Below are positions 492 through 552 of a stretch of DNA of 552 nt, one piece after another (position 1 is the stretch's first letter; every line of letters begins with the position of its first letter). The stretch is from the NCBI RefSeq assembly GCF_003334385.1, contig NZ_QOWN01000166.1, one strand, 5' to 3'. The notes under the pieces are model-generated. The model was not told the origin of the DNA and ran no database searches. It saw only the letters and a program-made list of their open reading frames with translations. The DNA is from Escherichia coli. GTDB lineage: Bacteria > Pseudomonadota > Gammaproteobacteria > Enterobacterales > Enterobacteriaceae. The position numbers were made by a program, and so were the translations under genes.

Positions 492-496
492 AATGA

Positions 497-503
497 CCTC
501 CTC
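497..503 (-). promoter_or_regulatory. Shine-Dalgarno / ribosome-binding site for the transposase gene
   Basis: Minus-strand sequence reads GAGGAGG-tcatt-ATG: a near-consensus SD with 5-nt spacing to the start codon at 491..489. Confidence 0.65.
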
Positions 504-552
504 TGGAATATCCCACCAATGCTATAGTGAGTATATAAAGGTCATACCATCT

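What the first reader, a model, noticed from the sequence alone, without database searches (positions are those of the whole stretch)
492..552. Recombinase leader: possible junction-promoter half and/or bridge-RNA segment, truncated by the window
In IS110-family elements the non-coding end next to the recombinase gene is functionally dense. A strong promoter is typically assembled only in the circular intermediate (-35 from one end, -10 from the other). In the IS110 subgroup this end also encodes a structured non-coding bridge RNA that specifies target and donor recognition. Here only 61 nt of leader is visible. On the minus strand it contains a -10-like hexamer TATACT (plus 530..535) about 33 nt upstream of the ATG, with no -35 in view, which fits a split junction promoter but is also expected by chance in AT-rich sequence. 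The leader is too short to hold a complete bridge RNA, so either the RNA continues beyond 552 or this element belongs to the IS1111-like subgroup, where the long non-coding region is at the other end.
Basis: partly seen in the sequence, partly recalled or inferred. Interest (0 to 1): 0.5.

Follow-up and report, generated by a model that had tools for sequence, protein, structure and literature searches.

The report
Complete left end of ISEc45
The 61 bases upstream of the recombinase gene are the whole, untruncated left end of the known insertion sequence ISEc45 (IS1111 group); they hold end-recognition and expression signals, while the guide (bridge/seek) RNA lies at the other end, so the finding is ordinary.

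Summary
The window is 100% identical to ISEc45, an IS110-family, IS1111-group insertion sequence common in E. coli. Two independent empty target sites put the element's left boundary exactly at window position 552. The 61-nt leader is therefore complete, not cut by the window.

It contains:
- the shared core dinucleotide (551-552)
- a 4-nt terminal extension
- a perfect 10-bp subterminal inverted repeat (537-546)
- AGGAGG (497-502) and the ATG (489-491)

It is too short for a bridge RNA and matches no Rfam family. The guide RNA lies in the 251-nt region downstream of the gene. That region has a structure conserved across eight relatives, with segments that covary with each element's target flanks and right end. 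Durrant et al. 2024 already list ISEc45 as "RE, IS1111".

It sits 28 nt from the conserved right-end TTGACA. The likelier junction promoter is TTGACA-17-TGgTATGAC (549-541), which forms only in the circle; this is inferred.

The left repeat can also pair with the ribosome-binding site in read-through transcripts.

The parts
551..552 (-). Core dinucleotide (AG on the gene strand, CT on the + strand). It is the left boundary of ISEc45 and is shared with the target.
   Evidence: Empty ISEc23 site ...GAAAAACT|TTATGTTC compared with the two junctions. A second empty site, rebuilt as left flank + one AG + right flank, matches plasmids 300/300 at 100%.
547..550 (-). Terminal extension ATGG between the core and the subterminal repeat. 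Position 547 is polymorphic (G/A on the gene strand).
   Evidence: The scheme AG + 5 nt + ATG... holds in all 8 relatives.
537..546 (-). Left subterminal inverted repeat TATGACCTTT. Its partner AAAGGTCATA is at the right end (L002 2109-2118, outside the window).
   Evidence: Perfect 10-bp inverted repeat found by script and visible. Equivalent repeats starting with ATG occur in all relatives.
541..549 (-). Candidate extended -10, TGgTATGAC. In the circular form it lies 17 nt downstream of the right-end TTGACA (L002 2123-2118).
   Evidence: Scan of the reconstructed circle junction: TTGACA-17-TATGAC, 10 of 12 matches with TG; absent in the integrated state. It lacks the T at -7. Inferred, not shown.
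530..535 (-).
   Evidence: Present. Chance-level frequency. It is 28 nt from TTGACA in the circle and has no -35 in either state. Not conserved in relatives.
512..531 (-). Small inner hairpin of the leader RNA (CUCACUA...UGGUGGG).
   Evidence: Minimum-free-energy folds. No covariation data, because the left end is invariant among copies.
493..502 (-). Shine-Dalgarno AGGAGG (497-502) followed by GTCAT. The stretch GGAGGUCAU (493-501) is complementary to the left repeat AUGACCUUU (537-545).
   Evidence: Leader fold: dG -18.5 kcal/mol, z -2.57, 3 of 200 shuffles as good. P(SD unpaired) is 0.03 in transcripts that include the repeat and 0.58 in transcripts starting at leader positions 19-21.
1..491 (-). 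First 163 codons of the ISEc45 DEDD recombinase (full length 377 aa). ATG at 491-489.

Best explanation
Window 492-552 is the entire left end (LE) of ISEc45, a 1,446-bp IS110-family element of the IS1111 group. It does not encode a bridge RNA.

Reading from the boundary inward on the gene strand, it carries:
- the core dinucleotide AG, where strand exchange with the target occurs
- a 4-nt extension
- the 10-bp subterminal inverted repeat
- a short untranslated region with AGGAGG
- the ATG

The guide RNA (bridge RNA / seekRNA) lies in the 251-nt region downstream of the recombinase gene. That RNA carries segments matching the right target flank, the left target flank plus core, and the right-end terminus plus core.

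Expression most likely follows the family's pattern. The integrated copy has no complete promoter. Excision as a circle abuts the right-end TTGACA to the LE, giving TTGACA-17 nt-TGgTATGAC. Transcription would then start about 19-21 nt into the LE.

An added inference concerns transcripts that enter from flanking DNA. These contain the LE repeat, which pairs with the Shine-Dalgarno sequence and blocks translation. Junction-promoter transcripts start downstream of the repeat and leave the ribosome-binding site open.

Shown: identity, boundaries, repeats, layout, and the conserved RNA structure with covarying guides. Inferred: which hexamer is the -10, the start site, and the translational gating.
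For: Identity: 100% over 552/552 to loci annotated ISEc45 in many E. coli genomes and plasmids. Pfam PF01548 + PF02371 and NCBIfam NF033542 at 278 bits.

Boundaries: two independent empty sites, plus insertions in four different sequence contexts that share the same ends.

Layout: 61-nt leader, 377-aa ORF, 251-nt 3' non-coding region. Perfect 10-bp subterminal repeat.

Relatives: seven relatives at 44-53% aa identity have the same layout and the same end scheme, AG+5 nt+ATG... / ...CAT+3 nt+AG.

Guide RNA: the 3' RNA structure is 85.6% paired against <=50% in slid controls. 25 of 34 pairs show compensatory change, and 0 of 500 shuffles reach the observed values. A 7-mer equal to the element's own right-end terminus is present in 7 of 8 NCRs, and off-diagonal hits are almost only where the 7-mers coincide. 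Right-target and left-target guides sit next to a conserved CCUCG/GAGG helix.

Literature: Durrant et al. list ISEc45 as 'RE / IS1111'. IS1111 elements have short LEs, long REs and 7-17-bp subterminal repeats, with the bridge RNA in the RE. Circle-junction promoters are established in both groups.

Promoter: none in the integrated state. TTGAC(A) is conserved inside the right repeat in 8 of 8 elements. A junction promoter-like site is created only in the circle in 6 of 8.

Leader fold and SD accessibility.
Against: - The proposed -10, TATGAC, has C rather than the highly conserved T at -7 and fails the strict consensus criteria used. By hexamer quality alone, TATACT is the better -10.
- In two relatives (L013, L015) no junction promoter was found by these criteria, and the TTGACA-to-repeat spacing varies from 17 to 21 nt.
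- No transcription start, circle junction or RNA has been observed for ISEc45.
- The leader hairpin rests on thermodynamic prediction only. The LE is invariant among copies, so covariation cannot test it. In relatives the segment that pairs with the SD lies downstream of the repeat.
- No consistent RNA guide for the LE itself was found.
Confidence: 0.85

Rival explanations
1. One reading: TATACT (535-530) is the -10 half of the circle-junction promoter and is completed by a -35 from the right end.
For: TATACT matches TATAAT at 5 of 6 positions, including A at -11 and T at -7. The LE lacks a -35. Junction promoters are usual in this family.
Against: In the reconstructed circle the conserved right-end TTGACA is 28 nt upstream of TATACT. 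The hexamers 16-18 nt upstream (ATAAGA, CATAAG, TCATAA) match TTGACA at no more than 2 of 6 positions. The hexamer has no counterpart in relatives, whose junction -10 candidates all lie at LE positions 4-12. A transcript starting after TATACT leaves the AUG mostly paired (P unpaired 0.07). Its frequency is at chance level.
Confidence: 0.1
2. The leader is the visible start of an IS110-group bridge RNA that continues beyond position 552.
For: The recombinase is IS110 family. In the IS110 group the bridge RNA is encoded in the LE.
Against: The element ends at 552. Beyond it lies IS66-family transposase coding sequence or other host DNA that differs between copies. No Rfam hit. The conserved, guide-bearing RNA is in the 3' region. 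Durrant et al. place the ISEc45 bridge RNA in the RE.
Confidence: 0.02
3. TATACT acts as a weak resident promoter that needs no -35. It gives basal transposase expression from the integrated copy, independent of any junction promoter.
For: Good -10 hexamer in an AT-rich stretch. The first excision needs some recombinase and guide RNA before any circle exists. A transcript starting near leader position 30 lacks the anti-SD repeat.
Against: No TG extension and no -35. Not conserved in relatives. The predicted transcript has a poorly accessible start codon.
Confidence: 0.2
4. Transposase is expressed mainly by read-through from flanking genes, and the leader has no promoter role.
For: No internal promoter found in the integrated state.
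Against: All IS66-borne copies are antisense to the IS66 transposase gene. Read-through transcripts are predicted to sequester the SD (P unpaired 0.03). The conserved right-end TTGAC(A) argues for a junction promoter.
Confidence: 0.07

Closest known systems
ISEc45 (ISfinder entry; IS110 family, IS1111 group)
   Same: The window is 100% identical to annotated ISEc45 copies. The protein differs from the ISfinder-derived sequences in two papers' supplements by only a few residues. Durrant et al. list it as IS1111 group with the predicted bridge RNA in the RE.
   Different: Nothing; it is this element. The details worked out here were not found in the searchable literature. These are the exact ends, the IS66 target, the guide segments, the junction-promoter geometry and the leader hairpin.
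ISEc11 (IS1111 family; experimentally characterised Pjunc promoter and seekRNA)
   Same: Similar size (1,443 vs 1,446 bp), subterminal inverted repeats and a downstream non-coding region that yields the guide RNA. It forms a circular intermediate whose abutted ends create an active promoter.
   Different: ISEc11's recombinase is 339 aa; ISEc45's is 377 aa. ISEc45's recombinase is only 15-25% identical to the 49 recombinases in the visible columns of the paper's identity matrix; those identified there are core IS1111-type elements. The targets differ (GTGAAAATACTG vs an IS66 transposase motif). No experiments exist for ISEc45.
IS1533 (Leptospira; IS1111 group)
   Same: Best match among the reference recombinases tested: 31% identity over the full length, E 1e-47. 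Listed as 'RE, IS1111'.
   Different: Distant sequence, different host and different target.
IS621 (IS110 group; bridge RNA paradigm)
   Same: DEDD recombinase, a core dinucleotide shared by donor and target, an RNA with separate target- and donor-matching segments, and a junction sigma-70 promoter with its -35 in the RE.
   Different: In IS621 the ~177-nt bridge RNA is encoded in a long LE, directly downstream of the junction promoter. ISEc45's LE is 61 nt and its RNA is in the RE. IS621 has only a 2-3-bp subterminal repeat, against 10 bp here.
Sequestration of translation signals by terminal repeats in read-through transcripts (IS10 'fold-back inhibition' and similar; from general knowledge of IS regulation)
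   Same: An end repeat is complementary to the ribosome-binding site. Only transcripts that start inside the element, downstream of the repeat, are translatable.
   Different: Here this is prediction only. The internal promoter would exist only in the circular form.

Membership tests
IS110 family (DEDD recombinase insertion sequences) | Recombinase with an N-terminal DEDD/RuvC-like domain (PF01548) and a C-terminal PF02371 domain | tested here: met
   PF01548 at residues 10-158 (E 3.6e-15) and PF02371 at 227-298 (E 7.9e-23). NCBIfam NF033542 at 278 bits against a cut-off of 140.
IS110 family (DEDD recombinase insertion sequences) | Site-specific insertion with no target duplication other than a core dinucleotide shared by donor and target | tested here: met
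   Both empty sites are restored by removing the element plus one copy of CT/AG.
IS1111 group | Subterminal inverted repeats of 7-17 bp set back from the ends by short extensions | tested here: met
   Perfect 10-bp repeat TATGACCTTT / AAAGGTCATA, set 6 nt (LE) and 4 nt (RE) from the ends, core included.
IS1111 group | Short LE and long RE, with the longer non-coding region downstream of the recombinase gene | tested here: met
   Leader 61 nt; 3' non-coding region 251 nt. The same holds in seven relatives.
IS1111 group | Recombinase related over its full length to IS1111-type recombinases, with the C-terminal GL-P----S(T)G motif | tested here: inconclusive
   GLVPGEYSSG is present, and the best reference match is IS1533 (31%, full length). 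However, identity to the core IS1111 cluster is only 15-25%, and 377 aa exceeds the 330-350 aa typical range. Both ISfinder and Durrant et al. file it as IS1111.
Bridge RNA / seekRNA-guided elements | A structured non-coding RNA encoded in an element end, with segments matching target flanks and donor ends that covary with them | tested here: met
   Conserved structure in the 3' region. Right-end guide in 7 of 8 elements. Right-target and left-target guides found. All are in the RE, none in the leader.
Bridge RNA / seekRNA-guided elements | The RNA is expressed, binds the recombinase and is required for transposition | not testable with these tools
   Needs small-RNA sequencing, co-purification and transposition assays, as done for ISEc11 and IS621.
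IS110 group (bridge RNA in LE) | Long LE (about 150-200 nt or more) encoding the bridge RNA upstream of the recombinase gene | tested here: not met
   The LE is 61 nt and ends at window 552. No Rfam match.
Circle-junction promoter (Pjunc-type) | -35 in one end and -10 in the other, forming a sigma-70 promoter with 16-18-nt spacing only when the ends are abutted | tested here: inconclusive
   TTGACA-17-TGgTATGAC matches 10 of 12 positions and is present only in the reconstructed circle. The -35 is conserved in 8 of 8 relatives. However, the -10 lacks T at -7, and circle formation and promoter activity were not observed.

The most novel reading that the evidence does not exclude
In ISEc45 the left subterminal repeat has a third job besides end recognition and carrying the junction -10: it acts as an anti-Shine-Dalgarno sequence. 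Transposase would then be translated only from transcripts that start at the circle-junction promoter, which couples translation to excision. Separately, the ISEc45/ISSso6 clade appears specialised to insert into IS66-family elements. ISEc45 inserts at the conserved G-R/K/N-K-N|F/Y-M/V-F-F codons of the IS66 transposase gene, antisense to it. This makes it an insertion sequence that preys on another insertion sequence.
Probability: 0.35. Interest if true: 0.35.

Novelty: already known. Interest (0 to 1): 0.15.

Why it matters
It mainly settles an annotation question. The leader is a complete IS1111-type left end, so nobody should look for a bridge RNA there.

The by-products have modest value:
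- exact ISEc45 ends and core
- a family-wide map of where the target and donor guides sit in the 3' RNA of this little-studied IS1533-like branch
- evidence that ISEc45 and ISSso6 home in on IS66-family elements
- a testable model in which the left repeat gates translation

These could help anyone wanting to reprogram this branch of RNA-guided recombinases. They extend published principles rather than changing them.

Tried and rejected
- Rfam scan of the whole element at a permissive threshold: only a chance Xist hit at E 4.3.
- Literature search for ISEc45: only resistome and mobilome listings.
- Prosseda 2006 (ISEc11 Pjunc) and Partridge & Hall 2003 could not be read. No direct comparison with the experimentally mapped ISEc11 junction promoter was therefore possible.
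- Covariation in the leader hairpin: impossible. The LE is invariant even in the 92% and 84% variants, apart from one G/A site and a 3-nt deletion.
- Search for an RNA guide complementary to the LE ('right donor'): isolated matches in L016, L012 and L013 only, with no consistent position. Rejected as unproven.
- A 'GTTCTTT' match to the left target flank: dropped. Relatives place the left-target guide elsewhere, next to the GAGG helix strand.
- Apparent extension of the donor guide into the right target flank: mostly explained by a conserved motif, so not claimed.
- Outward promoter on the + strand of 492-552: none.

Full report
**What is in the window.**
On the minus strand an ORF starts at ATG 491-489 and runs off position 1. 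The whole 552 bases are 100% identical to loci annotated 'IS110-like element ISEc45 family transposase' in many E. coli chromosomes and in plasmids of several enterobacteria. The full protein is 377 aa. It carries PF01548 (DEDD) and PF02371 and scores 278 bits on NCBIfam NF033542, 'IS110 family RNA-guided transposase'.

**The observation.**
- The 61-nt leader and the minus-strand TATACT at 535-530 are real.
- The hexamer ends 38 nt, not about 33 nt, before the ATG.
- Hexamers within one mismatch of TATAAT occur 12 times in the window, against 7.5 +/- 2.7 in shuffles. The hexamer alone carries no weight.

**Where the element ends.**
In full copies (L001-L003) ISEc45 interrupts an IS66-family (ISEc23) transposase gene. 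Aligning both junctions with uninterrupted ISEc23 copies gives:
- empty site ...GAAAAACT|TTATGTTC...
- an insert of 1,446 bp
- CT present at both junctions

On the gene strand the element reads AG-ATGG-TATGACCTTT...AAAGGTCATA-AG-(AG).

A second, unrelated insertion (L011) was used as a check. Its left flank + one AG + right flank matches about 97-kb plasmids at 100% over 300/300 in one piece. A third context gave full-length single-piece matches.

Window 552 is therefore the last base of the element. The leader is complete, and what follows differs from copy to copy. This removes the 'RNA continues beyond 552' reading.

**Anatomy of 492-552** (gene-strand leader position p = 553 - window coordinate):

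| Feature | Window coordinates |
|---|---|
| Core AG | 552-551 |
| Extension ATGG (547 polymorphic, G/A) | 550-547 |
| Perfect 10-bp subterminal repeat TATGACCTTT | 546-537 |
| TATACT | 535-530 |
| Small hairpin | 531-512 |
| AGGAGG | 502-497 |
| ATG | 491-489 |

Sources. The partner repeat lies 4 nt from the right end, core included.

**Which subgroup.**
The features of the IS1111 group are a short left end, a long right end and long subterminal repeats. All are met: 61 nt against 251 nt, and a 10-bp repeat.

Among reference recombinases the best match is IS1533, at 31% over the full length with E 1e-47. Identity to the core IS1111 cluster is only 15-25%, so this is a divergent branch.

Durrant et al. 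(Nature 2024) list ISEc45, ISSso6 and IS1533 as group IS1111 with the predicted bridge RNA in the RE. The classification is therefore already published.

**The guide RNA is at the other end.**
Seven relatives at 44-53% aa identity were collected from plasmids: ISSso6 and elements from Pseudosulfitobacter, Azospirillum, Sinorhizobium, Novosphingobium, Cupriavidus and Alteromonas. All share:
- a leader of 95-127 nt
- a 3' non-coding region of 250-400 nt
- subterminal repeats beginning with ATG
- the end scheme AG+5 nt+ATG... / ...CAT+3 nt+AG

Their 3' regions align to a common structure: a long closing stem, a CCUCG/GAGG helix and a GC hairpin. On the stated structure:
- 85.6% of cells pair, against no more than 50% when partners are slid
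- 25 of 34 pairs show compensatory changes
- 0 of 500 shuffles reach the observed values

Three segments covary with each element's own DNA:
1. Right-end guide. Directly after the hairpin is a copy of the right-end terminus through the core, (C)AUNNNAG. In ISEc45 it is AUAAGAG at NCR 131-137. An exact own match occurs in 7 of 8 elements, and cross-matches occur almost only where the 7-mers coincide.
2. Right-target guide. Just 3' of CCUCG is the reverse complement of the right target flank. In ISEc45 it is GAAAAA at NCR 37-42.
3. Left-target guide. Just 5' of GAGG is a same-sense copy of the left flank + AG + the first LE bases. In ISEc45 it is CACGUAGA at NCR 76-83, matching one natural IS66 target.

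This is the arrangement reported for seekRNAs and bridge RNAs, with top- and bottom-strand matches. Rfam has no model that hits it. No consistent guide for the left end was found.

**Promoter.**
The integrated copy has no sigma-70-like promoter upstream of the gene. All eight elements have TTGAC(A) abutting the inner edge of the right repeat.

Joining the ends of ISEc45 gives TTGACA-17 nt-TGgTATGAC, matching 10 of 12 positions with a TG extension. The G/A polymorphism falls on the 'n' of TGn.

In six of eight elements a promoter-like site spans the junction only in the circle, and its -10 is always at LE positions 4-12. TATACT is 28 nt from TTGACA and has no -35 in either state.

The LE thus very probably supplies the -10 half of a junction promoter, as known for ISEc11, ISEc21 and IS621, but from 549-541 rather than 535-530. 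Caveat: TATGAC lacks the T at -7, and nothing has been measured.

**Leader RNA.**
A transcript containing the whole leader folds so that the repeat AUGACCUUU pairs with GGAGGUCAU, which includes the Shine-Dalgarno sequence. The fold has dG -18.5 kcal/mol and z -2.57.

| Transcript | P(SD unpaired) |
|---|---|
| Entering from the flank | 0.03 |
| Starting at leader positions 19-21 | 0.58 |
| Starting after TATACT (AUG also largely paired) | 0.33 |

Source. This suggests the classical IS device of silencing read-through transcripts. It is prediction only: the LE is invariant among copies. In relatives the SD is also paired in the predicted fold, but with leader segments downstream of the repeat.

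**Verdict.**
The finding is the complete left end of a known IS1111-group element.
- The bridge-RNA-in-leader reading is refuted.
- The junction-promoter idea is plausible, but with a different hexamer.

Novelty: already known. Interest: low.

Noticed in passing
L002 2100-2110 and 3545-3560; L006, L007, L008, L009, L018 flanks: ISEc45 copies sit in at least four sequence-distinct IS66-family transposase genes. They are always at the same codons (G-R/K/N-K-N | F/Y-M/V-F-F) and always antisense to that gene. This suggests a guide-RNA-specified preference for a conserved IS66 motif, analogous to ISEc21 targeting the DDE codons of IS3 elements.
   Followed up: partly
L012 2093-2200: The 45%-identical relative ISSso6 is also inserted in an IS66-family element, but at a different place: just downstream of the IS66 transposase stop codon, in the element's end region.
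   Followed up: partly
L011 401-1849: One ISEc45 copy lies outside IS66, in a ~97-kb plasmid backbone upstream of a hypothetical gene. The target is ...ACTGGT-AG-TCTTTTTCC. Its empty site exists at 100% identity in many plasmids. The right-flank match to the RNA guide is longer here (8 nt) but shifted by 2 nt relative to the core.
   Followed up: partly
L002 2275-2282 (NCR 76-83): The left-target guide CACGUAGA matches the L006-type IS66 target (…CACGT-AG-A) perfectly. It has three mismatches next to the core against the target occupied by the window's own copy (…ACATAA-AG-A). This implies mismatch tolerance or a secondary target.
   Followed up: no
window 547: The only substitution seen in the first 60 leader positions among ISEc45 variants is G/A on the gene strand (AGATGG vs AGATGA; a second, T/C, lies at window 492, just before the ATG). 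It falls at the 'n' of the proposed TGn extended -10. Otherwise the left end carries only that second substitution and a 3-nt deletion even in copies 84-92% identical overall.
   Followed up: partly
L007 1846-1849; L001 2367-3491; L010 1259-2090: Several copies look inactivated. The Nissle 1917 copy has the right core mutated (AG to AA). The L001 copy has an internal stop. The 92% variant L010 is truncated and frameshifted and has lost 3 nt of the Shine-Dalgarno region.
   Followed up: no
L013 595-611 and 686-700: In the Pseudosulfitobacter relative, the 10-nt string AGATGGCATG occurs twice: at the extreme left end and again overlapping the start codon, as a direct repeat. Unexplained.
   Followed up: no
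L002 2135-2165 (NCR ~193-223): Between the conserved RNA and the right-end -35 box lies a short GC hairpin (AGCUC-CCG-GAGCU), followed about 9 nt later by UUUUU. It may be a terminator or processing signal. The consensus terminator scan did not flag it.
   Followed up: no
window 492-552 versus L012-L019 leaders: ISEc45 has by far the shortest leader of its clade (61 nt against 95-127 nt). It is the only one in which the anti-SD segment is the subterminal repeat itself.
   Followed up: partly
window 447-527 (+ strand): A 26-codon ORF lies antisense to the recombinase start region. It has no support and is probably spurious.
   Followed up: no
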